From the IMG/VR virus record IMGVR_UViG_2974563859_000001: DNA of 64,000 nt; one strand, 5' to 3'. The DNA comes from a virus. Lineage: Duplodnaviria; Heunggongvirae; Uroviricota; Caudoviricetes. Shown in pieces: positions 5,252 to 62,546 of this stretch. The position numbers and the translations under genes are program-made. How positions within the stretch are numbered: position 1 is the first letter of the stretch; each line of letters starts with the position of its first letter. Under the pieces are notes generated by a model. The model was not told the DNA's origin. It saw nothing but the letters and a program-made list of their open reading frames with translations, and ran no database searches.

Positions 5252-5413
5252 TTATTCTCTAGTTAGAGAATAAATTGCTTGTATTGCTTCATTCCCAATT
5301 TGACGAGAGTTTCGTCCCATTTGGTCTAACATATTCTTCTTTTCCCATATTAATCGTTCTGCTTCTTCATTAGCTTCTTTACTAAATACTCCACGTAGAG
5401 ATACTGTATCACC
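5252..5413 (-). CDS. RNA polymerase beta-prime N-terminal gene, last exon (GDTVSLRGVFSKEANEEAERLIW...YSLTRE*)
   Basis: Aligns to E. coli beta-prime [22 protein letters not shown]...LGLYYMTR. It has no start codon. It lies directly downstream of a td-like intron 3' end (...gaagattttG|ggtgat). Confidence 0.6.
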   Translation of the reverse strand, partial: GDTVSLRGVFSKEANEEAERLIWEKKNMLDQMGRNSRQIGNEAIQAIYSLTRE

Positions 5414-7303
5414 CAAAATCTTCCAGTAGATTCGCTACATCTACTGCGTTCTCTTATGAACTGCTCTATATTACTATAGAGATGAGACTATATCTTCACA
5501 ATATAATTGTGCCCTCCGTTTCCATTTAAAGAGGAATTATAACCTTATTACGGAATACCTCTACCGCTTGGCTGTACTCTACTCCCTTCCTTCTAACTAG
5601 CGTTATCACAACGATCTGTTAGAGTGGTTTCGATAGTCGTTGAACCTTCATCTTTAAATGAATTAAAGATGCTTGGATGCTGATTGTCCATATAGGATTT
5701 TCCAGCAGTTAAAAGGGTTTTACTACGACAGTAGATTATTATCTTTTATAGGTAAATACTAAATTACCACAATCCCATATTCTTTTAAATCTAGTTTTAT
5801 CCATGATTTCAAATTCAGTACTATCATCACTATATAATTTTGGAAATTTCTTTTTGAGATTAGACTTTCTATAATTAAATCTATGGAATCGTTGAGTTTT
5901 TTCAACGTTAACATACCAATAGTTGGGTTTACTAATATGACTTAATTCAAATTTATTATTGATATAAACATTGCCATCTGACCAGCGTTTATCTGCATAG
6001 GTTATTAATTCTTTCCACTCATAATTTCTCTCGAAGTATTTGAGAAGTTTACTAAAAGCACCTATTACTCTATAGTCCATATCGGTAGCGAATCTTGATA
6101 GTTCAAAAATATTATCAGCACTATTTCTACCTAGGCTTTTTCTAAGTTTACTAAAAGTCATTACCGCTACAAGTTCATCGCCATCTTCTTTTGGAAGCCA
6201 TAAGCCTAATTTAATTGATGACAAATCTTTTCCCTGAATGTGATTTCTTTCTAGGAATTCATTTTTAAAATTGTTATCAATTACTTCTACATAACAATTT
6301 CTAGCGTATATTTTAGTAGAATTATTTAATTTTAGTAGGTGTTTTATTTTTTCTTTTACTATGAGAGGTTTGTTAACCCATTCGTCTTCAAAAATTTGAA
6401 TTAGTCTAATCCCTTTACTATTACATTTTTCTAATTTTTCTAAATGATAGTTTCTTTTCTTCCCCATTTGCTCTGAATGCCAATATAAACCATTAAATTC
6501 AAAAGCAATTTTTTTGGAAGGAATAAATATATCAATCTCTTTACCTTCAAGTAATTTCCTGTCATTACATATGACTTTATCTACAACTAATCCTTTAATA
6601 AAAGAAGATAGTTCTTTTTCCATTTTTGATGAACTTTTAAATGCACAATATGGACATCTATTTCCATTATCAAAGTTTTTAATTGTAACTTCATACTCCT
6701 TATTACAACTATGATGTAACAATCTAATCTTCGTTTTATTATTACGATATTCACCTAATAATGAATACTCATTATTTGTAACTAAGCTAATTTTTCTTTT
6801 AACCTCATCAGTAGTTAGTCTTCTTTTACCAGAACATTGAGGACATCTATTTTTCAAAGCATAATAAGGAGTAGTCTTCCATTCATAATTACAGTCATTA
6901 CATCTGAAAAGTATTTTGGTATCGATATTGATATATTTCTCAAGACTTATAAGTCTTCCATTAGTCTTTTCTTTTAATTCCTTCTTAAACTCATCATTGC
7001 TTTTTAATCTTGATTTACCTTTATTAATATCAGCGCACTGAGGACATCTTCTACCATTATGAAATACATCAGGTCTAACCTCATATATATTTCCACATAA
7101 TTCATGCCTTAATTTGATTTTAGTCTTATTGTTAATATATTCATTGGATAAAACTGTATAGGTATTGTTAGTTAGTAATTTAACTTCTTCTTTGAATTCG
7201 TCCAGTGTCTTTTTATGTGGCATACATTAATACCTCCAAATAATTAATAATTATTTGTTTATTTGACACTGTATTCCCTTAAAAAGAAATAATATTAATT
7301 TTT
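5414..7303 (-). mobile_element. group I intron (phage IA2 / td-like core) carrying homing endonuclease ORF 5739..7223
   Basis: Core blocks AACGACTATCG and GAAGATATAGTCTCA plus the shared 3' tail agagcagttcataagagaacgc...gtagcgaatct. IGS gtcgtagt pairs the exon end actacgaT with a U-G pair at the junction. The junction splits the catalytic motif: D-Y-D | G-D. Confidence 0.6.
5739..7223 (-). CDS. homing endonuclease: N-terminal repeated zinc-finger modules plus C-terminal Vsr/EDxHD-like (DUF559-type) nuclease domain
   Basis: Repeated Y..L.EY.N..TKI...H..C...Y...P..F..G.RCP.C modules. C-terminal IAFEFNGLYWHSE. Paralogous to 7576..8493 and 34288..36051. Confidence 0.65.
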   Translation of the reverse strand: MPHKKTLDEFKEEVKLLTNNTYTVLSNEYINNKTKIKLRHELCGNIYEVRPDVFHNGRRCPQCADINKGKSRLKSNDEFKKELKEKTNGRLISLEKYINIDTKILFRCNDCNYEWKTTPYYALKNRCPQCSGKRRLTTDEVKRKISLVTNNEYSLLGEYRNNKTKIRLLHHSCNKEYEVTIKNFDNGNRCPYCAFKSSSKMEKELSSFIKGLVVDKVICNDRKLLEGKEIDIFIPSKKIAFEFNGLYWHSEQMGKKRNYHLEKLEKCNSKGIRLIQIFEDEWVNKPLIVKEKIKHLLKLNNSTKIYARNCYVEVIDNNFKNEFLERNHIQGKDLSSIKLGLWLPKEDGDELVAVMTFSKLRKSLGRNSADNIFELSRFATDMDYRVIGAFSKLLKYFERNYEWKELITYADKRWSDGNVYINNKFELSHISKPNYWYVNVEKTQRFHRFNYRKSNLKKKFPKLYSDDSTEFEIMDKTRFKRIWDCGNLVFTYKR

Positions 7304-7489
7304 ATCGTAGTCTCCGCCTAAAGCCTTTAAATAACCATTATAAGGAATTACTGTATCAACAAAAAGTTCATCCTCTGCGGGATAGTCAGGGTATATAACA
7401 GGATAATCAGGTAAGTATCTATCTTCCAGCTTTTGAGGTCGTGTTTCCTTTGTTGAAAGAATTCTTATTTTACTTGGATAAATATTCTA
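7304..7489 (-). CDS. RNA polymerase beta-prime N-terminal gene, internal exon (...IPYNGYLKALGGDYD)
   Basis: No ATG/GTG/TTG in frame. Ends in the DYD of the universally conserved NADFDGD motif. The 5' boundary is approximate. Confidence 0.45.
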
Positions 7490-9032
7490 TAGTGATAGGT
7501 AAAGATTTGATTTTATCTCCTCTTTTTCCCCCACTTCACACCCTACGTGCGACTTTCATCGCATAAGGCGTTCCATCAATTTAATAAAAATTTTTTAATA
7601 AGAATTGGTATACTATCGATTGGTGTATCATATTTAATTCTAAGAATTGGTAAATTATATTTCTTACAAAAATCATTTTTAATATTATCATGTTTTTGTA
7701 TTAATTCTAATTTTTTAATACGGTCATTTTCATCGTTACCAAAGATAGGAAGAAAATGTTGTCTACCATCATATTCTATTATAGCATTAAATTCCTCTAC
7801 AAAAAAATCAAAAGGTAAGGGTTTTCTATCTTTACATTCTTTAAAAGTTTTTTGATAGGTATATTCTGTTCCCATATTATTTAAAATATTTTTTATTAAT
7901 AATTCCCCACTACTCATTTTACAGTTTTTACATGAAAATTTATTAGATGTAATATTTTTTAATGAAAATTTATTAATAGTATTACACTCTAAATGTATTA
8001 TTTCTAATGGAGTTACATTATTTATATACTCACCAATCACTTTATACTCATTAGGATTTATTTTGTCTAACTGTTCTTGAACATATTCTTTATTTTTCTT
8101 AATAAGTCCTGAACAGTTAGGACAACGTCTCCCTAGAGATGTAAAATTTCCTGCTTTGACTTCATAAATGAATTTACATTTATTATGACGCATTGTTACC
8201 TTAGAATGATAATTTTTATAATTAGACAAAACAGTATATTCATCTTTTACTAATTCCTTAACCTTATTGATAAATTTTTCTGTAGTTAACTTTTCTTTTG
8301 AATTACAATGAGGACATCCATAACCCTGTAATAAGTTACAAGGTCTTGCCTCAAATTCTTTATTACAAATTTCATGTAATATTAAAATTTTTGTTTTAGA
8401 ATTAATATATTCACCAATTCGTTTGTAACCTTTTAGTATTTGATTTAGTCTTAAATCAAATGAAGTATTATCCAATTTTCTCATTAAAATCACTCCACAT
8501 AACTATTTATTATTATGTTTTGTGATTGTTCGATTATTTTTATTAAACTGACTATGACCCTTCGCTCCAATGGAGTTACCCATCTTCATAACTACTATGG
8601 TCTGCTGACTTTCTATATAAGAGTATCAACTATAATTTCTCTTATATAGAATCTCTGACGTTCCGTAAATGATAGTATAGCTATAACTTAGATGCCTTCT
8701 GCCCTATATAAACTTCTATTGTACCACACTTTACAATCAGGTCGTTCACCAGTACCGTATTACTAAACCCTGAATTTATATAGTATAAAAAGGTTCGTGT
8801 TCCTCATCATATTATAGCACCGCCCACCCTATCTATTAGTATTATAGTACTACTAATATTCAGATGACTTCACCTAACTTCATACAAATATTTTATATAG
8901 TTTAAAATAGATGCATGTAGGAGTATTAGCGACAAGTCTTCAATGAAAATGGTCATATCTTTTACTTGTTCTCATTTACAGTTTAGATTATAAAATCTAC
9001 TCCATTTCACATTAAATGCTTATAGGAGAACG
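7490..9032 (-). other. intervening sequence (putative intron of a different class) containing homing endonuclease ORF 7576..8493
   Basis: The beta-prime frame is broken by a stop at 9033-9035 and resumes at about 7489 without a start codon. The 540-nt segment at 8494-9032 is GC-richer and hairpin-rich. It lacks the td-like core blocks. Confidence 0.3.
7576..8493 (-). CDS. homing endonuclease paralog (zinc-finger modules + EDxHD/Vsr-like, IIEYDGRQH)
   Basis: Same architecture as 5739..7223. Confidence 0.6.
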   Translation of the reverse strand: MILMRKLDNTSFDLRLNQILKGYKRIGEYINSKTKILILHEICNKEFEARPCNLLQGYGCPHCNSKEKLTTEKFINKVKELVKDEYTVLSNYKNYHSKVTMRHNKCKFIYEVKAGNFTSLGRRCPNCSGLIKKNKEYVQEQLDKINPNEYKVIGEYINNVTPLEIIHLECNTINKFSLKNITSNKFSCKNCKMSSGELLIKNILNNMGTEYTYQKTFKECKDRKPLPFDFFVEEFNAIIEYDGRQHFLPIFGNDENDRIKKLELIQKHDNIKNDFCKKYNLPILRIKYDTPIDSIPILIKKFLLN

Positions 9033-34275: not shown

Positions 34276-34318
34276 AAAGGATAGAGACTAAATATCTCTA
34301 TCCTTTATTTTTTTTTTT
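34276..34318. terminator. bidirectional terminator
   Basis: aaaggatagagac-taaat-atctctatccttt followed by a T11 run. Confidence 0.6.
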
Positions 34319-36051
34319 GTATACTCAAAGACTAAATTTCCACAATCCCAAATTCTATCATAACCAGCTTCTCTCATAATTTGAATTTCTGTTTTATCAT
34401 TACTATAAATTTCTGGAAATAATTCTTTTAATCTTTGTTTTCTATAGTTGTATCTATGTGAAAGACTCAATTTATTTTTATTAAAATACCAATAATTTGG
34501 CTGAGAGTTATGCATAAAGTGAAAGCTATTTTTATGATATACATTTCCTTCTGACCATCTTAAATCAGCATATGTTATGATTTTATTCCAATCATAATTC
34601 TTTTTAAAATAACTGAATAATTTTCCAAAACTACCTATTACATTATAGTCTCTTTCTGTAGCAAATCTACTTAATTCATAGTCATATTTATTCCCTTTTT
34701 GCCCTAAGCTAACTCTAGGTTTACAGAATGTCATTACTGCTACTAACTCATCACCCTCATTCCTTGGATACCATAGTCCCAGTTTAATAGTAGAGTTATC
34801 AGATCCTTGAATATGATTTTTATCTAAAAAATCTCTTTTCACATTATTCTGAATTTCTTCTATATAACATTTTCTAGCATATATTTTTTCTCCATTATTT
34901 AAACCTAAAATATGTTTTATCTTTCCCTTTATAAGTTCTTTATTATCAATCCACTCATTCTCAAATAAATGAATTAATCTTATACCCTTTTCATTACATT
35001 TTTTCAATTTATTTAAATGGTAGTTTCTATCTTTTCCTTGAGATTCACCATGCCAATATAAACCGTTATATTCAATTGCTATTTTCTTTGAAGGTATATA
35101 AATATCCAGTTCTAAACCTTCAAGTATTTTTCTGTCTGATAGAATTACATTAGTGCTATTGGGGAGAATTTGTTTAATATAATCATATAATTCAATCTCA
35201 TCTTTTGAATTATGTTTCTTTAGTTGACATCTAGGACAATCTCTTTTAACTTTTTTACCTCTTGAATTACCATGTAAAATATCGACCGGTCTAACCTCCC
35301 AAGAATAGCCACATGAATGCTCAATAACTATTGGAGTTTTATTATTAATATATCTACTCTTAATTGTATAATCATTACTATTAAATATTCTATAAAAATC
35401 TTCTTTAAAACCATTAGATCCTTTATTTTTTGGATTTTTATTACATATATTACACCTTTTTCTTTTTAGGAAATTAGTTGGTGTAATAAAGAAATTATGA
35501 GAATCACTAGTATTGTGTCTCATCTCAATTTTATCTTGAGAGCTAATATATTCTCCTAATACAGTATATTCATCTCCTACTAAATCATACACTTCTTTAA
35601 TAAACATTTCAGTAGTCTTTGTCTTTTTCCTTTTTATTAGTTTCTTAGTACAATCAGGACATCTTGAACCCTTACTGAGAAAGTCATTAGGTCTTTTTTT
35701 AAACTCCTTATTACAGATGTTATGTCTAAGTAATACTAGTTTAGAACTATTAATATATTCTCCTAATACAGTATATTCATCTCCTACTAAATCATACACT
35801 TCTTTAATAAACATTTCAGTAGTCTTATTTTTTCTTTTAGATATTCTCTCTGATTTATGTAAAGGACATCTATTACCTGCATTTAAAAAGCCATTTGGTG
35901 AGACATAGTATTCATGACTGCACTTTTCATGTTTCATTTTTATTTTATTATTAGTTCCAGTATATTCTCCTAATACAGTATATTCATCTCCTACTAAATC
36001 ATACACTTCTTTAATAAACATTTCAGTAGTCTTTTTAGGCAAAACAATCAT
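34288..36051 (-). CDS. free-standing homing endonuclease paralog (three zinc-finger modules + EDxHD/Vsr-like nuclease)
   Basis: Three near-identical modules: KTTEMFIKEVYDLVGDEYTVLGEY...CP.C. C-terminal IAIEYNGLYWHGE. Confidence 0.65.
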   Translation of the reverse strand: MIVLPKKTTEMFIKEVYDLVGDEYTVLGEYTGTNNKIKMKHEKCSHEYYVSPNGFLNAGNRCPLHKSERISKRKNKTTEMFIKEVYDLVGDEYTVLGEYINSSKLVLLRHNICNKEFKKRPNDFLSKGSRCPDCTKKLIKRKKTKTTEMFIKEVYDLVGDEYTVLGEYISSQDKIEMRHNTSDSHNFFITPTNFLKRKRCNICNKNPKNKGSNGFKEDFYRIFNSNDYTIKSRYINNKTPIVIEHSCGYSWEVRPVDILHGNSRGKKVKRDCPRCQLKKHNSKDEIELYDYIKQILPNSTNVILSDRKILEGLELDIYIPSKKIAIEYNGLYWHGESQGKDRNYHLNKLKKCNEKGIRLIHLFENEWIDNKELIKGKIKHILGLNNGEKIYARKCYIEEIQNNVKRDFLDKNHIQGSDNSTIKLGLWYPRNEGDELVAVMTFCKPRVSLGQKGNKYDYELSRFATERDYNVIGSFGKLFSYFKKNYDWNKIITYADLRWSEGNVYHKNSFHFMHNSQPNYWYFNKNKLSLSHRYNYRKQRLKELFPEIYSNDKTEIQIMREAGYDRIWDCGNLVFEYTKKKIKDRDI

Positions 36052-36120: not shown

Positions 36121-37251
36121 TTATTCTGAATATATTTTACCAATTTCTCTCTTAAGATGAACTAAAGCTTTATTTAAATACAATGCATTGTAAATATCAA
36201 CGGTCATGCGTGAAACGATACTTAATGGACTCATAATGGCTTCAATATTCTCATCTGGATCATTCTCACTAAAAGGCTCTTGATCTTTAGGAATAACATC
36301 AGATACAATTGTTTTAAGTGCTGTATAATACGTAATCTTATCTCCAATACCAAGTTCATCATCATACTCAATATAAATCTCAATGAGTAGTCCATCTACC
36401 TCAGTACCTTTAATTTTCTCACCTGATTGCTTTTGAATAGGTTTAAGATTAACAGAAGTCAGATCATTAGTAACAGACTTAATCTTATCTTCTTTCTTCT
36501 TACTATCTTTAATATAGTTCTTCAGAATCTTTTGTACTGAAGGAGAAAACTCACTGATATCTTTATTGTAGTACATTACAACATCTACAATCTTACCAGT
36601 ATATTTAGAACTTACTTTGTTCTTAGATAACTCATTAATAGTCTCATTAAAGTCATCTCCTAGTTTATCTAAGAGTTGGTTGAGTGATTTATCTTCAAAA
36701 GAGTTTTCAAAGATAATCAGTGGATCACCAGTTTTAACCATATCGCCTTTCTTAACAATAAAGTCAATGTTTGAGTTAACTCCAAGAGCAAGTTCTTTCT
36801 TCATAGTAATCTTAGTAGATAGGTCTTGAGATAAGCTTTCTGTGATAATACTACTATCTTCATATGTGTAATCTGCGCTTGCTAGTGCTACTTTACAAAG
36901 CTTCCCTGTAGTATACGTGATATCATCTTTCTTATCGCCAAGGAAATAACTTGGATTCTTCGCTAGGATATCATCTTTTTTGAATTTCTCTCCTACTTTG
37001 ATAATGAGTTCTTTACGATTGGAAATATAGAAACCACCATTACTGTTCTTACTCATATGCTCGGAGAGATCAATGACGTCTTTCTTACCATCATTATAAC
37101 GAACGACAGCTAACTCATGTTCTTCATCTATGGACTCTAGAACTCCATCTTTTTTTGCTCTAAACACAAAGTCGTCACTTAGAATGTAAGCGACAGTCTT
37201 CTCTACACCACTACCAAATAGAGGTTTAGATTGCTTTGTGGTAGGAATGAT
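36121..37251 (-). CDS. RNA polymerase beta N-terminal gene, exon 5 (IIPTTKQSKPLFGSG...PSRM...)
   Basis: Aligns to E. coli beta AVPTLRADKPLVGTG...GDKMAGRHGNKGV...GVPSRMN. The frame is open upstream of the GTG that the ORF track used as a start. Confidence 0.65.
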   Translation of the reverse strand: MIPTTKQSKPLFGSGVEKTVAYILSDDFVFRAKKDGVLESIDEEHELAVVRYNDGKKDVIDLSEHMSKNSNGGFYISNRKELIIKVGEKFKKDDILAKNPSYFLGDKKDDITYTTGKLCKVALASADYTYEDSSIITESLSQDLSTKITMKKELALGVNSNIDFIVKKGDMVKTGDPLIIFENSFEDKSLNQLLDKLGDDFNETINELSKNKVSSKYTGKIVDVVMYYNKDISEFSPSVQKILKNYIKDSKKKEDKIKSVTNDLTSVNLKPIQKQSGEKIKGTEVDGLLIEIYIEYDDELGIGDKITYYTALKTIVSDVIPKDQEPFSENDPDENIEAIMSPLSIVSRMTVDIYNALYLNKALVHLKREIGKIYSE

Positions 37252-37611
37252 CGTTAACTTCCATTAGATTCGCTACGTCTAATGCGTTCTCTTATGAACT
37301 GCTCTATATTTCTATAGAGACGAGACTATATCACTATCCTTATCTATTAAGGATAACCCCCATTTCCATTTAAGGGATTCTCACCCACTCCAATCGCTTG
37401 AGCCGTACTCCTATTGCGGAATTTCACCGCTACTCACAATCCTAAGATTGCTTTCGGATAGTCGTTGAACCTTCATTGTTATTTATAACAATGCTTGGAT
37501 GCTGATTGTCCATATATCCTTTAGATTGTTACACTTTGGTACTAAAGGCTTTAGGATTTTCCAGCAGTTAAAGGGTTTTGCTAGCAATATTACTACTACT
37601 AGGCACGAATC
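37252..37611 (-). mobile_element. group I intron (td-like, no ORF) in the beta gene
   Basis: ctttaactgctgg, caacgactatcc, gatatagtctcg and the tail ...gcgaatctaatggaagttaacG. Confidence 0.55.
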
Positions 37612-37788
37612 ATGCTTTTGCTGCGTTGTTTGCATTCCAACGCGCGGTGGGTCGGCATGACGAGCAGTAAAGGAGTTTAATAACTCTGCCGGACCATAGA
37701 TATTTGTCGTATTATTTTTTGTATTAGGATTGGTGTCTAAGAATCCTCGTGTGTTTTTGAATGCTGGATCAAAAGTTAACTGTCTAAC
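37612..37788 (-). CDS. RNA polymerase beta gene, exon 4 (VRQLTFDPAFKNTRGFLDT...FTARHADPPRVGMQTTQQKH)
   Basis: GC-rich island. GFLDT matches GFLET. ARHADPPRVGMQTTQQ matches EHDDANRALMGANMQRQ. Confidence 0.55.
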
Positions 37789-38837
37789 CCATTACCTTCA
37801 TATAGGTTCGCTACACCTATACCGTTCTCTTATGAACTGCTCTATGTTACCATAGAGATGAGACTATATCTTTATCTAGTCAAAAAAAAAGAAAGGAGAT
37901 GACTAGATATCTCCCATTTCCATTTAAGGGATTCTCACCCACTCCAATCGCTTGAGCCGTACTCCTATTGTGTGTTAACCACTAAAGGATAGTCGTTGAA
38001 CGTTACTCTCGTTATAATTAAAAATAATTTATAAAACCGTTTTTCTCAGCAATTTCTTTTCTAAAAGTAATTGCTAGTTCTTTAGCTTTTTCAAAACCAT
38101 ATTTATTAACTGCAAATGTTTTAATAAATTTTTTATGATTAACACGGATTTCAGATTCCCATCTATTTTTCTTTTTAGAATATCTTATTCCTTTAATTCC
38201 AGAAGTATTATCGTTTCTTAGTGATGTATTTCTATTATTCATCATTTGAGAAACCTCACGCAAATTACTTTTTCTATTATTTAAACTATTTCTATCTATA
38301 TGATCAATTACATTATTATTATCTTTAATATCCATTAGGTATCTATGAAGCTTTCCACCTGAATTACTTGAAATATAAAATGAATTATTTCTTTTAGACC
38401 AGATAGCTCTCCAAACATGCTTATTTATTTTATCAATATCTTCAATATCAATTTGAGATTTTACGATACCATATGTTTTTGAAAAAGTAACTAATAATGC
38501 ATGATCATCTAATACTTCAATAAAATTATATGCTCTTTTTCCTTCTTTTAATGTTTTCATAGCTATACGCTCACTATAATCTCCATATAAAACTTCTGAA
38601 TAATGTGCAAGGGAATTTGATTTCTTTTCTTTATTATAGAAACTTACTCTCCATAATTTTTGTTCTTTTAGATATATTATTTTATTTTTTTCCATAATAG
38701 TAGCTCTCCTTTTTAACTTACTACTATTATAATATATATTTAACGAGAGTCTTCGATACGGATTGTCCTATTATTAGGAGTTTCCCGTAGTTAGAGAGAT
38801 TTTATCATTATATATCACTATATAAGGGGGCAGTTTA
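37789..38837 (-). mobile_element. group I intron with HNH-AP2 homing endonuclease (38018..38695) inserted in a stem-loop
   Basis: Stem ctctcgtt/aacgagag flanks the ORF. The td-like 3' core lies at 37789-38010. Confidence 0.5.
38018..38695 (-). CDS. HNH homing endonuclease with C-terminal AP2 DNA-binding domain
   Basis: IDHIDRNSLNNRKSNLREVS (HNH) and GIRYSKKKNRWESEIRVNHKK (AP2). RBS aaggagagc. Promoter-like motif on the minus strand at 38728-38741. Confidence 0.7.
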   Translation of the reverse strand: MEKNKIIYLKEQKLWRVSFYNKEKKSNSLAHYSEVLYGDYSERIAMKTLKEGKRAYNFIEVLDDHALLVTFSKTYGIVKSQIDIEDIDKINKHVWRAIWSKRNNSFYISSNSGGKLHRYLMDIKDNNNVIDHIDRNSLNNRKSNLREVSQMMNNRNTSLRNDNTSGIKGIRYSKKKNRWESEIRVNHKKFIKTFAVNKYGFEKAKELAITFRKEIAEKNGFINYF

Positions 38838-38852
38838 ATTCACCCCAACTTT
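38838..38852 (-). CDS. RNA polymerase beta gene, proposed 15-nt micro-exon (KVGVN)
   Basis: Lies between a td-like intron 3' end (...ggaagataatG) and the next intron, which starts taa after an exon T. It restores the conserved (I/V)GL(I/V)N segment. Confidence 0.35.
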
Positions 38853-39187
38853 CATTATCTTCCACTAGATTCGCTACATCTAATGCGTTCTCTTATGAAC
38901 TGCTTCATGTTACCATGAAGATGAGACTATATCATCATCCTATTAGGATGCCTCCCATTTCCAACTCCAATCGCTTGAGTTGTACTCTACTCCCTTCCTT
39001 CTAACTAGCGTTATCACAACGATCTGTTAGAGTGGTTTCGATAGTCGTTGAACCTTACTCTAATGAGTCTTGGATGCTGATTGTCCTTAAAGGATTTTCC
39101 AGCAGTTAAAGAGGTTTACTTATAATATTTCTATTATAAGGGACTATTATAAATCTTGTCTGGGAATTCAAGAATTATAATAATTCA
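38853..39187 (-). mobile_element. group I intron (td-like, no ORF)
   Basis: Complete core: ctttaactgctgg, caacgactatcg, gatatagtctca and the tail gtagcgaatctagtgg. Confidence 0.5.
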
Positions 39188-39265
39188 ATCCGAGTCGGGT
39201 GTTGACATTGCCATGATTCCACGCATACTAGGGTCATAAGCCCGAATATCAGTTGTATAAGCATC
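39188..39265 (-). CDS. RNA polymerase beta gene, proposed 78-nt micro-exon (DAYTTDIRAYDPSMRGIMAMSTPDSD)
   Basis: STPDS matches the universal ETPEG motif. Flanked by a td-like 3' end (...gaaggaaaacG) and a 5' exon-T|tga junction. Confidence 0.45.
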
Positions 39266-39649
39266 CGTTTTCCTTCATATAGGTTCGCTACACCTATACC
39301 GTTCCTTAGAACTGCTCTAAGTTTCCCTAGAGACGAGACTATATCATCACTTAAAAGTGCCTCCCATTTCCAGCCTCAATCGCTTAGACTGTACTCTACT
39401 CCCTTCCACTAACTAGCATTATTGTAATGATCTGTTAGAGTGGTTTCGATAGTCGTTGAACCTTTACCTTATTACAAATAATTTGTAACTTAGGTACTTG
39501 GTTGCTTATGATTACCCAATCCTTTAAATTTTTACCATACCTGAATTGTTATATTCAGCCATCTATTATGTTTCCATATAGATTTGGTATTAAAGGCTCT
39601 AAGGGTTTTCCAGCAGTTAAAGAGGTTTTAATTGGACTAAAACACTTTA
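39266..39649 (-). mobile_element. group I intron (td-like, no ORF)
   Basis: Begins taaagtgttttaGTCCAATtaaaacctctttaactgctgg. IGS gtccaa pairs the exon end ttggaT. Confidence 0.55.
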
Positions 39650-42445
39650 ATCCAAGTTCCTTCCTGAAAGCCCCTTGTAAGTAGCCGCACCACCCTTTTC
39701 AATTTCCAAAGAAGGGTTAAGGACACTATATTCATCGACAGTAGGTGAATTCATTAATGTCTTTAATAGAATATCCTGTGGAACAGACATCTTAATAGGA
39801 TTACCAGCTTTCAGTGTATCCTTATACGTTTTAAATGAATCTGCCAAGATTTTATACAAGTAGGCGTTTACTTGCTCAGTACCACGGATTCGATATGAAT
39901 TCATATCATTCAGTGGACTATAGCTCATATCTTCCAATAAGGTATTCGCATACAACAATATGTCATAGATATTCTCAGGTAATTCTAACTGTTTCAGTAC
40001 ATCTAATGTGATAGGATCAACCATTAGAGATAGAGTATTATGGAGACCTTTACCCATATTTCTGCTACCAAACATCTCATAGAAAGTTTCAATATAAGGA
40101 TCTTTAGAGTTCATTTCTTCAAATGTATACTCTTCAGTAGCCATAGTACTTAGACCACTTAATAATAAGGAATTTCTCAATAAAGAATTATTATAATATA
40201 GGTATCCATCTTTAAAACGGATCTTATCATAGTCATCATCAATTGTAATTCTCTTATTCTTAGTATCAAAGCTATATTCAATATTATATCTTTCTAATAA
40301 ATCTTCTAATCCTAATTCATATCCAAGAAGAACCACTAAAGGAATCATTCTATTATTAATACGAACTCGGTTATATGCTAGAGACTTAGAATTACTTAAA
40401 GAAGATAATTTTTTATAAGCTTCCTCACTAAGTGAAGTAACAACAACTTTAATAATGAGTTCTGAAAGACTCATATCAGTATTTTCTTGTTTCTTATTAT
40501 TAATCAGATAAACTCTTTTACTTGAACGCTTAAGAGCAATAACATTTTCATTATCTTTTGTATGACCGATTGGTAAGAATTGTTTATCATCAATATTAAT
40601 CTTAGCAAGCTTAGCCATATTATCAAGATCACTTTTCAATAAATCTTCTACTTCTTTTTGACTGAACATAAGTTTATATTCATCATTCTCTAAGCTTAGA
40701 AGGAAGGAAGAGATTTCATTATATTCAAGAGTTGTTTCATATCCCTCATTAATTGTTAGAGCGTTACCTAGACGATAATTAAACTTCTTACCTGATACTT
40801 TAAATTCATTTAGATCCATACCAAAAAGCTTCTTAAGTTTCTCAGTTTTATGAGATAGCTTAGAACCAAAGCGCATGACAAAAAACTTATTGTAGTTAGT
40901 AGTAATCTGAACTTCATCAGGTTTTGTTTTTACAATGGGTAAAGATAGAATTTGCTTAAGAATTAATTTTTTACCACCATTAATATTCATAAACCTACCA
41001 TCTCTGATAATAGGATAATCAAATTTAACAGTATGCTTTACATTACGATCATCTTGGAAAGTAACAGTGTAAGTTAATTTCTTTGATAAATCAGTAGATG
41101 TGTCTTCTGTTTTAATATCACTTACAAATAATTTAACATCGCTATCTCCATTAAATGATGAAAGAACTGCAACTAAGTCTTTTTTCATCTGTTTCTCAAA
41201 GTAGCTCATATCAAAATCTTTAAGATTTGAATATCTAGTTTCTTCTTGAATAACATTTGTATTGGTAATTGGCTTTCGGTCAATACTTGTTGATTTAAAA
41301 TCATCAATAATATCTTGAATATTAATATCATCAAGAGTAACTTGTTTTTGTTTTTCTTTTAGGCGTTCAAGAGTCTTTCTCTGTTTAATTTCATCTCCAC
41401 CAGTAGACTGAAGCTCTTTAAGAGTTGAAACATCAGCTTTTAATTCCTTACTGTTATTTAAGATATCAATGATTTCATCTTCACTTTTATCAAGAATATC
41501 TTCATCACTTGAATCAATAGCTTTTTCAATATCATCACCAATCTTATCAGTAACTTCAATTGCACTACTGGATAATTTTGTATTTCCATCAATTTGGAAA
41601 TTACTTAATAATTTTTCTTTAACTTTTTCAGATTTTTCTTTTACTAATGCATCTCTCTTGTTTTCTGTTTCTTGAGTTGCATCTTCTTTACCTAAAGGTT
41701 TTTCATCATTATTAGTCCTCTGATGATTTGCTGTTTTAATAAGAATATTTAATGCATTAAGGAATCTATTTGCAAGAAGATTAGAAAGTTCATCATTAAT
41801 ATTGAATTTAATAAATGTATTATTAACTGTAGTATAAAAAATAAAGTCTACATTCTTAAGCTCTTTCTTCTGTTCCTCTGTTAACAACTTTCTTTTAATT
41901 GCCATATAGATATAAGCAAAAGGTGTTCTTGCATTATTTAAGTCAAAGAATGATGGATCAAGAACATTGTCAGGAACAGGAATTGCTACTGCTTTATTCT
42001 CATATGATGCGCCCTCTTTAATTTTAGATATAAGAAACTCAAAATACATTTCAACTCGTTTTCTTCCACGAACTTTAATCTCTACTTCATTCTCAAGATG
42101 CTCATTTGTAATATCATAGATCAAGTTAAGATCATTATAATTAGTTAAAGCACGTTTAGTATAAATAATACTGGAGCATTTTGCTTTTACCTCATCATAA
42201 TATTTCTTTTGATCTACAATAATTCTTTTATTCTTTTGAACAGTATTGAATGCTCTTGGAATATATACTCCTCTAAAAAAAGAAGGACTGAATATATTAG
42301 AATTAATAAAATCAAATATTTCACTTTGATTATTTCCTGAAAAGAAAATCAAATTTGAATTACGGTCATTTTTCCTTTTTTTAATGGATGAAAGTTTTAT
42401 ATTAGAGTACACTCTCAATTCCTTGAGATTATCAAGATAAAACAA
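39650..42445 (-). CDS. RNA polymerase beta N-terminal gene, exon 1 (TTG start)
   Basis: Ends ...NPSLEIEKGGAATYKGLSGRNLD, matching [20 protein letters not shown]. RBS aaggaagtggg. Confidence 0.6.
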
Positions 42446-42502
42446 TTATACCCACTTCCTTTCTTAACAATATCTATTTGTTTACATAAGAAATTAAAAA
42501 TA

Positions 42503-60150: not shown

Positions 60151-61176
60151 ATGGCAGATGAACAGCAAAACGTTGATGAACAACAGTCACAGATAATTGG
60201 AGATGAGTTTTTCCAAGAAGGTAACTCTAATTCAGATTCAAAAGGTGGATTTGGAACAAGTGTAGAATATACTGATGGTTTTGAAGCGTTAATTGGATCT
60301 TCTAAGGGTGGTTCTGGTTCTTATGCTACACCTACATGGAATCCATATAAATCAGATAGTGTATTAGGCTTACCTTTATACTACAATGATTTAGCGGATC
60401 CTTCGGGAAGAGTATACAATCAAACCATTATTCAAGATATTCCTAATATATACATGGTTCCCGGAATTCCATCTATTAATAGAAATATGATTGACGTAGC
60501 AGGAAAACGTATTATTCCTGCTACTCTTTCTCGTGCATTAATGGATTTTCAAAATAATCCAAATAGTATTTTTAATTTTGGAGTTAGAGGAGTAAAAAGT
60601 GGTAATGACCTTCGTTTCATAGGGTTTAAAGCAGATTATTCTGAATACTTTAAATATGTACAAACTATGTTAAGTACTATACATTCATATATGGCAATGG
60701 ATGGCATATTTGATTTATATAGATTCTCAGATGACTTTAATAATAGTTTTAAAAATTATGGATTATGTTTTTATGCAGATAAATCTACAACTATTTCTGA
60801 GTCAGCTGATAATACTTATGCGGCTTCTAGAACAGCAGAAATGGTAAGTGAGAAAGCGGCTACTTTAAGGGAAGCAGATTTATTATATCCTACAGGAAGT
60901 ACAACATCTCGTATTGTTGACTCAATTAAAGCGGCTAATCCAATTGGTGTACTAGAATCATTAGGTTCATTTGATGGAATTATCACTCGTACATCAAATG
61001 CATTATTTCGTGTTGTAAATGGATCACAATTAATGTTCCCTGACTTTTGGCAAGATTCTAGATTTGATAAATCTTATAATATTAGTTTCAAATTTTATAG
61101 TCCTTATGGTGATAGAGAAAGTATATTTAGATACGTGTATGTACCTTTTATAGCACTATTAGCATTAGCATTGCCT
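60151..61176 (+). CDS. virion structural protein gene, exon 1
   Basis: The ORF ends at a T followed by intron-initial taa. Intron IGS gggcaat pairs the exon end attgccT. Confidence 0.55.
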
Positions 61177-61617
61177 TAAATGACGGGGCAATTAAAACTC
61201 TTTTAACTGCTGGAACATCCTTAGAGCTTATTAGACTACAACGTGACTGGTGACAGTGAGCGTGAATGTTTAAAAACTAATAAGATTGGACAATCAGCAA
61301 CTAGTTAAAACTTCCACATGGAAGTTACTAGCTCAACGACTATCGAAACCACATCATTTGATGGAAGGAAGTAGAGTACCCCACAAGCGTGGTTACATTT
61401 AGGCATAAATGTAAGTATAGTAAACTAATACTATATGGGAAACAAAGAGCATGATGAAGGCAAAAAGCTGGAGTGAAGATATAGTCTCAACTTCTATGGA
61501 AACATAGAGCATGATGAAGGCAAAAAGCTGGAGTGAAGATATAGTCTCAACTTCTATGGAAACATAGAGCAGTTCATAAGAGAACGCACTGAAGTAGCGA
61601 CTCAGTGGAAGGTTATG
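61177..61617 (+). mobile_element. group I intron 1 (td-like, no ORF) with internal 60-nt tandem duplication
   Basis: taaatgacGGGGCAATtaaaactcttttaactgctgg ... caacgactatcg ... gaagatatagtctca ... gcgactcagtggaaggttatG. Confidence 0.55.
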
Positions 61618-61677
61618 CGTCAAGACGGTTTATTAGGATATCAGCAACCATTCTTTGTAAGAATGTCTCGTCCGGGT
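61618..61677 (+). CDS. proposed 60-nt mini-exon (RQDGLLGYQQPFFVRMSRPG)
   Basis: Open frame between the intron 1 3' end and the intron 2 start (exon ...ccgggT|taactaaatagctcgg; IGS gctcgg pairs ccgggt). Confidence 0.4.
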
Positions 61678-62159
61678 TAACTAAATAGCTCGGCTTATGA
61701 GTAATCATAAGAAACAATCATTCTCTAATTGCTGGAAAGTCTTAACATGTTGTGATGAAGATAATCAGCAGCGAAGATTATTAGTTTTAGATTGTGTAAT
61801 AAAAAATTATATCAATAGTAAAATAAACAAAATAATATAAAAATAATTATTGTAAGATTAATAATATTCCACTTTTAAGAATACCATATAAATATAGGGA
61901 TACTGTTGATATAATTCTAGAAGACTTCTTTACTAATAATAACGTTCAACGACTATCCGAAAGTAATCGTTAGATTATGAGTAGCCTAAAAATAGGCAAT
62001 AGGAGTACGGCTCAAGTGTTTGGAGTGGGTGAAAATCCCTTAAATGGAAACGGGAATCCCCTCTTTAGAGAGGGTGAAGATATAGTCTCATCTCTATGGA
62101 AACATAGAGCAGTTCATAAGAGAACGCATTAGATGTAGCGAATCTAATGGAAGATAATG
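61678..62159 (+). mobile_element. group I intron 2 (td-like, no ORF)
   Basis: caacgactatccgaaag ... ggagtacggctcaag ... gaagatatagtctcatctctatggaaacatagagcagttcataagagaacgcattagatgtagcgaatctaatggaagataatG. Confidence 0.55.
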
Positions 62160-62546
62160 TATTTTGACATAGATATGGGAGTAGTAACAAGCTTGACTAT
62201 TACTAAAGGCGGAGCTGATAGTCTTTGGACAGTTGACGGTCATCCGCAAATGATTGAAGTTAATATGAACGTAGTAGATTTATATCCGCAAATGATTCAA
62301 ATTAAAGATATTGGTTTACTTGCTTATAATTTGGGAATTGCATCATTCTTAGAAAATATGGCAGGAATAAGACCAGACCAATTAAGTTTTCTTAAATTTA
62401 AATCATTAATTAATAGAAAACTATCAAATTCATTATTGTTTACTACTTTCCTTGATGGAGGTTCAGGAATTAAAGATAGAGTTGGTAATAAATTTGCTGA
62501 CTTCTTCTATGAACTACAAGGTAAGTTTAATAATATATTAAGATAA
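62160..62546 (+). CDS. virion structural protein gene, exon 3 (YFDIDMGVVTSL...)
   Basis: In frame with exon 1 and the mini-exon after removal of both introns. Confidence 0.5.
   Translation, partial: YFDIDMGVVTSLTITKGGADSLWTVDGHPQMIEVNMNVVDLYPQMIQIKDIGLLAYNLGIASFLENMAGIRPDQLSFLKFKSLINRKLSNSLLFTTFLDGGSGIKDRVGNKFADFFYELQGKFNNILR

What the first reader, a model, noticed from the sequence alone, without database searches (positions are those of the whole stretch)
36121..42445. RNA polymerase beta gene fragmented by four td-like group I introns, with proposed 78-nt and 15-nt micro-exons
A single beta reading frame starts at the TTG at 42445 and stops at 39647. The missing conserved blocks can be recovered only by joining three further pieces: 39188-39265 (STPDSD, matching ETPEG), 38838-38852 (KVGVN, matching NIGLIN) and 37612-37788 (GFLDT...ARHADPPRVGMQTTQQ, matching GFLET...EHDDANRALMGANMQRQ). 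The 36121-37251 exon (AVPTLRADKPLVGTG homolog) follows. Each gap carries the full td-like core: ctttaactgctgg, caacgactatc, gaagatatagtctc and the 3' tail agagcagttcataagagaacgc..gtagcgaa..G. Every 5' junction is exon-T followed by taa or tga, so unspliced RNA would terminate there. All proposed junctions keep the reading frame. The insertion sites lie in the most conserved catalytic and hybrid-binding segments. A 15-nt exon between two self-splicing introns would be exceptional.
Basis: partly seen in the sequence, partly recalled or inferred. Interest (0 to 1): 0.9.

Follow-up and report, generated by a model that had tools for sequence, protein, structure and literature searches.

The report
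PBS1 polymerase gene, four self-splicing introns

Summary
The window is Bacillus jumbo phage PBS1 (100% match). The region encodes the N-terminal beta subunit of the virion RNA polymerase, the orthologue of AR9 gp189. Four group I introns interrupt it: all four pass Rfam's gathering score, and their helices show compensatory changes. Phage Goe21 reads straight through junctions 1 and 2. Metagenomic relatives and bacterial beta read through junction 4.

The micro-exon is real but mis-sized. Exon 3 is therefore 38852-38842 (11 nt), exon 4 starts at 37789, and the product is 1397 aa.

None of this is new in kind. AR9_g189, 97.8% identical and the same species, has been a six-piece joined CDS since 2016. 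That count fits only if a micro-exon is included, and a later paper calls the AR9 mature coding sequences experimentally determined. Short exons between group I introns are also known in phage Twort (23 nt) and are routine in fungal mitochondria (12-15 bp). What remains is a correction to the PBS1 annotation and a modest curiosity.

The parts
42471..42482 (-). Match to the AR9 late-promoter consensus AACA-N6-TA, 26 nt upstream of the TTG start. Inferred promoter for the whole pre-mRNA.
   Evidence: Sequence read. Consensus taken from PMC5312081. AR9 g189 is a late gene. The TSS was not mapped in PBS1.
39650..42445 (-). Exon 1 (2796 nt, 932 codons, TTG start). Ends ...CTTGGAT.
   Evidence: ORF. 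Same start as AR9_g189. Goe21 reads contiguously across the exon 1/exon 2 junction.
39266..39649 (-). Intron 1, group I, 384 nt, no ORF. P1 is UUGGAU/GUCCAA with U39650·G. The intron ends in G39266.
   Evidence: Rfam RF00028, 65 bits. P1 fold. Absent from Goe21 and BpSp at this site. Covariation.
39188..39265 (-). Exon 2 (78 nt), encoding DAYTTDIRAYDPSMRGIMAMSTPDSD.
   Evidence: 100% tblastn match in AR9 and Internexus. Contiguous with exon 1 and exon 3 in Goe21 and in BpSp and P0001.
38853..39187 (-). Intron 2, group I, 335 nt, no ORF. P1 is GGAU/GUCC next to P2. The intron ends in G38853.
   Evidence: Rfam, 102 bits. Forcing P1 costs only 0.8 kcal/mol. Absent from Goe21, BpSp and L007.
38842..38852 (-). 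Exon 3, micro-exon, 11 nt AAAGTTGGGGT (K V G and the first two bases of V).
   Evidence: Uninterrupted relatives read KVGVVRQL. L007 DNA is AAAGTTGGCGTGGTGAGACAG. The P1 U·G wobble is at U38842. Goe21's spliced CDS has the same length, 4194 nt.
37790..38841 (-). Intron 3, group I, 1052 nt, with an endonuclease ORF in the P6 loop. The IGS AACUGCCCC pairs with GGGGU (P1) and GGUU (P10). The intron ends ...GGTAATG at G37790.
   Evidence: Rfam, 52 bits, for the 3' half. The ORF-deleted intron aligns and covaries with the others. P1. P10 by inspection.
38729..38741 (-). Exact match to the AR9 early (virion RNAP) promoter consensus AAATATATATTAT, 33 nt upstream of the endonuclease ATG.
   Evidence: [quoted passage not shown]
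38018..38695 (-). Intron-encoded homing endonuclease, 225 aa, with HNH and AP2 DNA-binding domains (AR9 g190 orthologue).
   Evidence: Pfam AP2 scores 52.2 bits (cut-off 33.3). HNH_3 scores 22.7 bits, just under its 24.8 cut-off. AR9 annotation.
37612..37789 (-). Exon 4 (178 nt), starting GGTTAGACAG and ending ...CAAAAGCAT.
37252..37611 (-). Intron 4, group I, 360 nt, no ORF. P1 is GCAUG/CGUGC with U37612·G. The intron ends in G37252.
   Evidence: Rfam, 82 bits. P1. Relatives P0001, P0003-6 and P0010 read QQKHIIP or QQKHLIP uninterrupted. Bacterial beta aligns ungapped.
36121..37251 (-). Exon 5 (1131 nt including the TAA stop), starting ATCATTCCTACC.
   Evidence: Pfam RNA_pol_Rpb2_6 scores 39.2 bits. 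AR9, Internexus and BpSp carry an extra intron at codon 1095|1096 that PBS1 lacks.

Best explanation
This is the PBS1 orthologue of AR9 g189, the late gene for the N-terminal half of the beta subunit of the virion-packaged multisubunit RNA polymerase. Its coding sequence is interrupted by four mobile group I introns of the phage IA2-like (T4 td/nrdB-like) type.

Inferred course of events:
1. The phage non-virion RNAP transcribes a pre-mRNA of about 6.3 kb from a late promoter.
2. Each intron folds into its ribozyme core.
3. The internal guide sequence pairs with the last 4-6 exon bases (P1, with U·G at the cleavage site).
4. Exogenous guanosine attacks the 5' splice site.
5. The freed exon 3'-OH attacks after the terminal G of the intron.

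Five exons are joined: 2796, 78, 11, 178 and 1131 nt. The result is a 4194-nt ORF of 1397 aa with restored beta motifs (...STPDSDKVGVVRQL..., ...MQTTQQKHIIPT...). Unspliced RNA would terminate early after exons 1, 2 and 3.

Intron 3 carries an HNH-AP2 homing endonuclease in its P6 loop. It is expressed separately from its own early promoter and presumably drives intron homing into intron-less alleles during co-infection.

Shown here: the intron identities, the conserved fold, the exon boundaries, the coding continuity and the promoter motif. Inferred: self-splicing itself, splicing order, homing and the use of the late promoter.
For: Identity:
- The window is 100% PBS1 and 97.8% AR9.
- AR9_g189 is annotated as a virion RNAP beta N-terminus CDS joined from 6 pieces, with g190 (HNH-AP2) inside it.
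- gp189/gp078 together correspond to virion beta, and both are late genes.

Introns:
- Four RF00028 hits exceed the gathering score.
- Alifold of 8 introns recovers 57 pairs, 31 of them with compensatory changes. This includes ORF-deleted intron 3.
- P1 U·G wobbles sit at the splice sites.
- Intron 2 is related to T4 nrdB, Staphylococcus, SPbeta and T7-like phage introns.

Junctions:
- Goe21 is contiguous across junctions 1 and 2 at nucleotide level.
- BpSp, L007 and P0001 are contiguous across junctions 2, 3 and 4.
- Bacterial beta aligns ungapped across junction 4 and across junctions 2 and 3 (weak).

11-nt exon.

Endonuclease and promoter.

A later paper describes AR9 mature mRNA coding sequences as experimentally determined.
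Against: - No RNA data for PBS1 were available here, so splicing is inferred from structure and homology.
- I could not read the AR9 join coordinates or the Lavysh 2016 paper. I therefore cannot say whether the deposited AR9 micro-exon is 11 or 15 nt.
- Intron 2's P1 is only 4 bp and is absent from the unconstrained MFE fold.
- The alignment of the junction 1-3 region to bacterial beta is below significance on its own.
- The Rfam hit for intron 3 is only just above threshold, because the ORF splits the core.
Confidence: 0.88

Rival explanations
1. Exon 3 is 15 nt (38838-38852, KVGVN), intron 3 runs 38837-37789 and exon 4 starts at 37788, giving a 1398-aa protein with an extra asparagine.
For: The join is in frame. 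The 5' splice site follows a U and is directly followed by TAA. The intron would still end in G (37789).
Against: - No relative has the extra residue: Goe21, BpSp, P0001, P0003/4 and P0006/10 all read (K/Q)V(G/S)(V/I)VRQ.
- L007 DNA matches the 11-nt join base for base.
- Goe21's spliced CDS is 4194 nt, not 4197.
- U38838 cannot form a P1 U·G pair. The exon end GAAU stays unpaired in the best duplex, -6.1 against -8.8 kcal/mol.
- The intron 3' end would be one base longer than its aligned homologues, which end TAATG.
Confidence: 0.07
2. No splicing occurs. The pieces are translated separately as split subunits, or they are pseudogene debris, with a functional beta supplied from elsewhere.
For: Jumbo-phage RNAP subunits are naturally split into separate genes. 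PBS1 GenBank records annotate only separate fragments. The phage also encodes a second, non-virion beta set.
Against: - The 78-nt and 11-nt pieces have no start codons or ribosome-binding sites, yet they are 100% conserved and encode the most conserved beta motifs.
- All gaps are intact group I ribozymes with covariation.
- Close relatives carry the same coding sequence uninterrupted at these sites.
- Differences from Goe21 near the junctions are all synonymous, which implies purifying selection on the joined frame.
- AR9 gp189 is treated as a single virion subunit.
Confidence: 0.03
3. The introns are present but are not autonomous ribozymes in vivo. Splicing of the tightly packed introns 2 and 3, or of introns 1 and 2 with their look-alike 5' splice sites, needs a phage or host protein cofactor or a fixed order. 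Alternatively, some exon skipping occurs, as in Twort orf142.
For: - Only 11 nt separate two ribozymes.
- Introns 1 and 2 have nearly interchangeable P1 specificity. The exon 1 end scores -3.6 with the intron 2 guide sequence, against -3.9 kcal/mol for the cognate exon 2 end.
- Exon skipping between similar IA2 introns flanking a 23-nt exon is documented in Twort and reproduced with engineered tandem introns.
Against: No data bear on this either way. Skipping the 11-nt exon would shift the frame, so any such product would be non-functional. The cores look complete.
Confidence: 0.15

Closest known systems
Bacillus phage AR9 gene g189 (AMS01273.1, KU878088.1): virion RNAP beta N-terminal subunit, CDS joined from six exons, with g190 HNH-AP2 endonuclease in an intron (Lavysh et al. 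2016, Virology 495:185; PMC5312081)
   Same: It belongs to the same species (Takahashivirus PBS1) and is 97.8% identical in DNA. It has the same four introns at the same sites, the same micro-exon sequence, the same endonuclease and the same early promoter.
   Different: AR9 has a fifth intron (301 nt) at codon 1095|1096 that PBS1 lacks. PBS1 GenBank records do not annotate the join. I could not read AR9's join coordinates, so the deposited micro-exon length is unverified.
Staphylococcus phage Twort orf142: three group I introns, with a 23-nt exon between two similar IA2 introns
   Same: It is a phage protein-coding gene with several IA2-type introns and a very short internal exon between related introns.
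   Different: The PBS1 exon is shorter (11 nt) and is not a multiple of three, so skipping it would be deleterious. Exon skipping is shown for Twort and untested here.
T4 td / nrdB / sunY introns and other phage IA2 group I introns (SPO1/SP82 DNA polymerase, SPbeta bnrdE/F, Staphylococcus K-like phages)
   Same: They share core sequence blocks: AACGACUAUC, GAUAUAGUCU and the P9 hairpin CAUGGUAACAUG. BLAST gives 78% identity over 91 nt to the T4 nrdB intron. The td comparison is from memory. Like these, the PBS1 introns insert into conserved sites of essential genes and can carry endonuclease ORFs in peripheral loops.
   Different: The host gene differs (RNAP beta), and four introns fall within 270 nt of coding sequence. 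No formal subgroup assignment was done here.
Mini-exons in fungal mitochondrial cox1/cob genes
   Same: These are exons of 12-15 bp or fewer flanked by group I or II introns. They are described as occurring regularly and are often missed by annotators.
   Different: They occur in organelles rather than a phage, and splicing there often depends on maturases.

Membership tests
Group I catalytic intron (Rfam RF00028) | Conserved core fold (P3-P9), scored by the covariance model at or above the gathering score | tested here: met
   The four hits score 65.3, 102.4, 51.7 and 81.5 bits against a gathering score of 50. Intron 3 is only just above, because its ORF splits the core.
Group I catalytic intron (Rfam RF00028) | Helices supported by compensatory base changes among related copies | tested here: met
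   Alifold on 8 introns (4 from PBS1, 1 from AR9, 3 from BpSp) gives 57 pairs, 31 with both-side changes. One example is P4, CUGCUG/CAGCA in most introns and CUACGG/CCGUA in intron 3.
Group I catalytic intron (Rfam RF00028) | 5' splice site after a U that forms a U·G wobble in P1 with the internal guide sequence | tested here: met
   The wobbles are U39650·G in intron 1, U38842·G38831 in intron 3 and U37612·G in intron 4, all seen in MFE folds. Intron 2's GGAU/GUCC appears only under constraint, at +0.8 kcal/mol.
Group I catalytic intron (Rfam RF00028) | Terminal guanosine (omega-G) at the 3' end of the intron | tested here: met
   G39266, G38853, G37790 and G37252 directly precede the exon sequence, as defined by intron-less alleles.
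Group I catalytic intron (Rfam RF00028) | Guanosine-dependent self-splicing activity | not testable with these tools
   This needs an in vitro transcript with GTP, or RNA from infected cells. A secondary source says AR9 mature mRNA sequences were determined experimentally. The primary paper is not held.
Subgroup IA2 (T4 td-like) | Subgroup-specific peripheral architecture (P7.1/P7.2, P9.1/P9.2) and similarity to T4 td/nrdB/sunY | tested here: inconclusive
   BLAST similarity to the T4 nrdB intron over the P7-P9 region, and extra 3' hairpins recovered by alifold. No formal subgroup classifier was available. The td resemblance is recalled from memory.
Multisubunit RNA polymerase beta subunit (jumbo-phage virion RNAP, N-terminal beta) | Homology to bacterial beta across the conserved blocks, collinear after splicing | tested here: met
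   Pfam RNA_pol_Rpb2_6 scores 39.2 bits against a 23.4 cut-off. PDB beta chains match at E=2.6e-10, or 5e-14 with a profile. The alignment runs ungapped across junction 4. AR9 orthologue annotation.
HNH homing endonuclease with AP2 DNA-binding domain | HNH nuclease motif plus an AP2 domain, encoded inside an intron | tested here: met
   AP2 scores 52.2 bits (cut-off 33.3). HNH_3 scores 22.7 bits, slightly under its 24.8 cut-off. The ORF lies in the P6 loop of intron 3. Endonuclease activity was not tested.

The most novel reading that the evidence does not exclude
The 11-nt exon may be the shortest exon known between two self-splicing group I introns in any phage or bacterium. The packing of the gene could impose real mechanistic constraints. 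One is an obligatory splicing order for introns 2 and 3. Another is low-level in-frame skipping of the 78-nt exon, because introns 1 and 2 recognise almost the same 5' exon sequence (GGAU). A third concerns a terminator-like hairpin in intron 3 that competes with P3/P8. It could end the early endonuclease transcript yet be masked once the full ribozyme folds in the late pre-mRNA.
Probability: 0.12. Interest if true: 0.55.

Novelty: already known. Interest (0 to 1): 0.25.

Why it matters
The main value is correctness of annotation. All three PBS1 records list this essential virion RNA polymerase subunit as unrelated fragments, although AR9 shows the joined gene. Anyone modelling or expressing the PBS1 or AR9 virion RNAP needs the right mature sequence, which is 1397 aa with VGVVR rather than VGVNVR.

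More broadly, six related phages use at least nine different intron insertion sites within about 185 codons of this gene. Mini-exons of 11 and about 37 nt occur, endonuclease gain and loss is visible, and synonymous divergence clusters at the insertion sites. That makes the gene a compact natural system for studying intron homing and tandem ribozyme splicing. The phenomenon itself has been published since 2016.

Tried and rejected
- An exact-sequence look-up of both AR9 splice variants (1397 and 1398 aa), meant to reveal the deposited AR9 protein, found neither. PBS1 and AR9 proteins appear to be absent from that collection, so the result is uninformative.
- Lavysh et al. 2016 could not be read by DOI, PMC id or PubMed id.
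- A profile search against PDB did not extend the significant alignment upstream of HADPP, because most homologues in the profile start downstream. A short single-sequence search gave only a sub-threshold, collinear alignment for the junction 2-3 region.
- The sigma-70 promoter scan is irrelevant for this phage, which uses its own polymerases.
- I considered whether the terminator-like hairpin in intron 3 tracks with endonuclease-bearing introns in general. It does not: it is absent from Goe21's intron and from Internexus intron 4.
- The structure paper on the AR9 non-virion RNAP says nothing about introns.
- The pseudogene or split-subunit reading was rejected (see rival explanations).

Full report
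**Identity of the region.** The window is Bacillus jumbo phage PBS1. The 6.6-kb query matches two PBS1 records at 100% and AR9 at 97.8%. In AR9 the orthologous gene, AR9_g189, is annotated as 'DNA-directed RNA polymerase beta subunit, N-terminus; virion RNAP subunit'. It is a CDS joined from six pieces, and g190, an HNH-AP2 homing endonuclease, lies inside it. The three PBS1 records list only disconnected fragments, as 'hypothetical protein' or 'RNA polymerase beta subunit'. In AR9, gp189 and gp078 together correspond to the beta subunit of the virion RNAP, and both are late genes.

**Check of the observation.**
- The 932-aa ORF 42445-39647 (-) exists.
- Rfam finds four group I introns above the gathering score, one in each of the four gaps: 65, 102, 52 and 82 bits.
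- The quoted core motifs occur once per gap, far above chance.

**Junctions tested against natural intron-less alleles.** A tblastn of the spliced product onto relatives gave the following.
- Goe21, 99% identical in protein, reads contiguously through residues 1-962. At nucleotide level it reads ...CTTGGAT|GATGCT... and ...GAT|AAGGT... This fixes junctions 1 and 2 to the base.
- BpSp reads through junctions 1, 2 and 3 but has introns at other sites.
- A metagenomic relative, P0001 on locus L007 (84% identical), reads through junctions 2, 3 and 4. It gives ...PDSDKVGVVRQLTYDP... and ...TQQKHIIPTTKQ....
- Bacterial beta aligns ungapped across junction 4: MQTTQQKH|IIPT against MGANMQRQ|AVPT.
- PBS1 itself is the intron-less allele for a fifth intron, present in AR9, Internexus and BpSp at codon 1095|1096.

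**The micro-exon is 11 nt, not 15.** Several lines of evidence point to an 11-nt exon instead.
- Every relative that is uninterrupted here reads KVGVVRQ, KVSVVRQ or QVGIVRQ.
- L007 DNA reads AAAGTTGGCGTGGTGAGACAG where PBS1 has AAAGTTGGGGT|GGTTAGACAG.
- Goe21's spliced CDS is 4194 nt, the same as the 11-nt model.
- Intron 3's P1 folds as GGGGUG/UGCCCC, with the U·G wobble at U38842. U38838 has no partner.
- The best duplex with the guide sequence is -8.8 kcal/mol for the 11-nt exon end. It is -6.1 for the 15-nt end, where the terminal GAAU is left unpaired.
- The four bases 5' of the P1 guide strand (AACU, 38835-38832) pair with GGUU at 37789-37786. One guide sequence, AACUGCCCC, therefore aligns both exons (P1 plus P10, by inspection).
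- The 3' ends of introns 2 and 3 and of the BpSp introns align as ...TAATG.
- The weak but collinear alignment to bacterial beta is ungapped only for this model: MSTPDSDKVGVVRQLT against IETPEGPNIGLINSLA.

*Revised model (- strand).*

| Element | Coordinates | Length |
|---|---|---|
| Exon 1 | 42445-39650 | 2796 nt |
| Intron 1 | 39649-39266 | 384 nt |
| Exon 2 | 39265-39188 | 78 nt |
| Intron 2 | 39187-38853 | 335 nt |
| Exon 3 | 38852-38842 | 11 nt |
| Intron 3 | 38841-37790 | 1052 nt |
| Exon 4 | 37789-37612 | 178 nt |
| Intron 4 | 37611-37252 | 360 nt |
| Exon 5 | 37251-36121 | 1131 nt |

The product is 1397 aa.

**Are the introns intact ribozymes?** I aligned eight introns: PBS1 introns 1, 2 and 4, intron 3 with its ORF removed, AR9's fifth intron, and three from BpSp. 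The alignment gives a consensus structure of 57 pairs, 31 with compensatory changes, and recovers P3, P4, P5, P6 and the 3' hairpins. Intron 2's 4-bp P1 (GGAU/GUCC) costs only 0.8 kcal/mol to impose and stacks next to P2, as in the other introns. Intron 2 has relatives in 699 phage records. These include the T4 nrdB intron, Staphylococcus K-like phages, SPbeta and T7-like DNA polymerase genes, and there are 12 places in AR9 alone. 'td-like' is therefore a fair description, although I did not run a formal subgroup assignment.

**Mechanism.** Most of this section is inference.
- The gene has a match to the AR9 late-promoter consensus (AACA-N6-TA) at 42482-42471. It would be transcribed late by the non-virion RNAP.
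- Four guanosine-initiated splicing reactions would produce the mature mRNA.
- Without splicing, translation stops immediately after exons 1 and 2, two codons after exon 3, and 42 codons after exon 4.
- Intron 3 carries a 225-aa endonuclease in its P6 loop. AP2 scores 52 bits and HNH_3 22.7 bits, just under its cut-off.
- An exact early-promoter consensus lies at 38741-38729. [quoted passage not shown]
- Nucleotide identity between PBS1 and Goe21 falls to 0.83-0.87, all synonymous, in the 120 nt around junctions 2 and 3. It is 0.976 elsewhere. This is what co-conversion during homing, or selection for endonuclease-resistant sites, would produce.

**Comparison with what is known.**
- AR9's six-piece join can only be reached by counting the micro-exon. 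tblastn finds five large pieces.
- Korn et al. describe AR9 mature mRNA coding sequences as experimentally determined.
- I could not obtain the primary paper or the join coordinates, so I cannot say whether the deposited micro-exon is 11 or 15 nt.
- Short exons between group I introns have precedent: 23 nt in Twort orf142, with exon skipping, and 34 nt in Coxiella 23S rRNA.
- Mini-exons of 12-15 bp are routine in fungal mitochondrial genes.

**Verdict.** The finding is real and essentially correct in kind, but it describes a feature already published and annotated for the sister phage. Its one distinctive claim, the 15-nt exon, is off by four bases. I rate it as already known and of low to moderate interest. 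The untested possibilities are splicing order, exon skipping between look-alike introns, and the terminator-like hairpin in intron 3.

Noticed in passing
window 5464-5775 (-): Another group I intron of the same family (Rfam 84 bits; core motifs at 5632 and 5484), in a different gene.
   Followed up: no
window 7489-8986 (-): A group II intron: D1-D4 at 8813-8986 (80.7 bits) and D5/D6 at 7489-7573 (55 bits). It is probably the PBS1/AR9 group II intron in the virion RNAP beta' N-terminal gene described in NAR 2025 (PMC12350094).
   Followed up: partly
window 61156-62230 (+): A group I intron at 61156-61509 (56 bits). A second pair of core motifs (CAACGACTATC at 61947, GATATAGTCTC at 62079) was not reported by Rfam at gathering, so there is probably a second intron close by. 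There is also a duplicated GATATAGTCTC at 61478 and 61538.
   Followed up: no
window 34288-36051 (-): A free-standing 587-aa ORF directly downstream of the beta gene. It has three tandem repeats of about 45 aa (KTTEMFIKEVYDLVGDEYTVLGEY...) that hit the CapR homology domain weakly. Its AR9 orthologue g188 is annotated 'Hef-like homing endonuclease'. It resembles the CapR-like plus EDxHD/Vsr-like endonuclease family described in PMC12350094.
   Followed up: partly
window 37894-37915 (-), inside intron 3: A terminator-like hairpin GGGAGAUAUCUAGUCAUCUCC followed by a U-run, downstream of the endonuclease ORF. It uses the P3' strand and the P8 loop, so it would compete with the ribozyme fold. It is conserved in AR9 and Internexus but absent from other endonuclease-bearing introns. 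It might terminate the early endonuclease transcript.
   Followed up: partly
L004 (Internexus) 6760-7171: Internexus intron 3 has lost its endonuclease. Only the ORF's start and end remain (ATGGAAAAAATAAAATAATAATTTTATAAATTATTTTTAA), and the early promoter lacks two bases. Conversely, Internexus intron 4 carries a 368-aa ORF that PBS1 intron 4 lacks. This is a snapshot of the endonuclease gain and loss cycle.
   Followed up: partly
L007 about 5317-5353 (metagenome SRR12632055): A second mini-exon in the same gene family: about 37 nt encoding EIEKFGAATYKG, lying between two introns at sites not used in PBS1. Across six phages, at least nine insertion sites fall within about 185 codons.
   Followed up: partly
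window 39650-39657 and 39188-39195 (-), with guide sequences near 39626 and 39131: Introns 1 and 2 recognise nearly the same 5' exon sequence (UUGGAU and UCGGAU, with guide sequences GUCCAA and GUCC). Cross-pairing energies are close to the cognate ones. Skipping of the 78-nt exon, which is in frame, is therefore conceivable.
   Followed up: partly
spliced CDS nt 2820-2940 (window about 39240-37730): PBS1 and Goe21 differ only at synonymous sites here, with identity 0.83-0.87 against 0.976 elsewhere. The differences cluster around the intron sites. This is consistent with co-conversion tracts or endonuclease-site immunity.
   Followed up: yes
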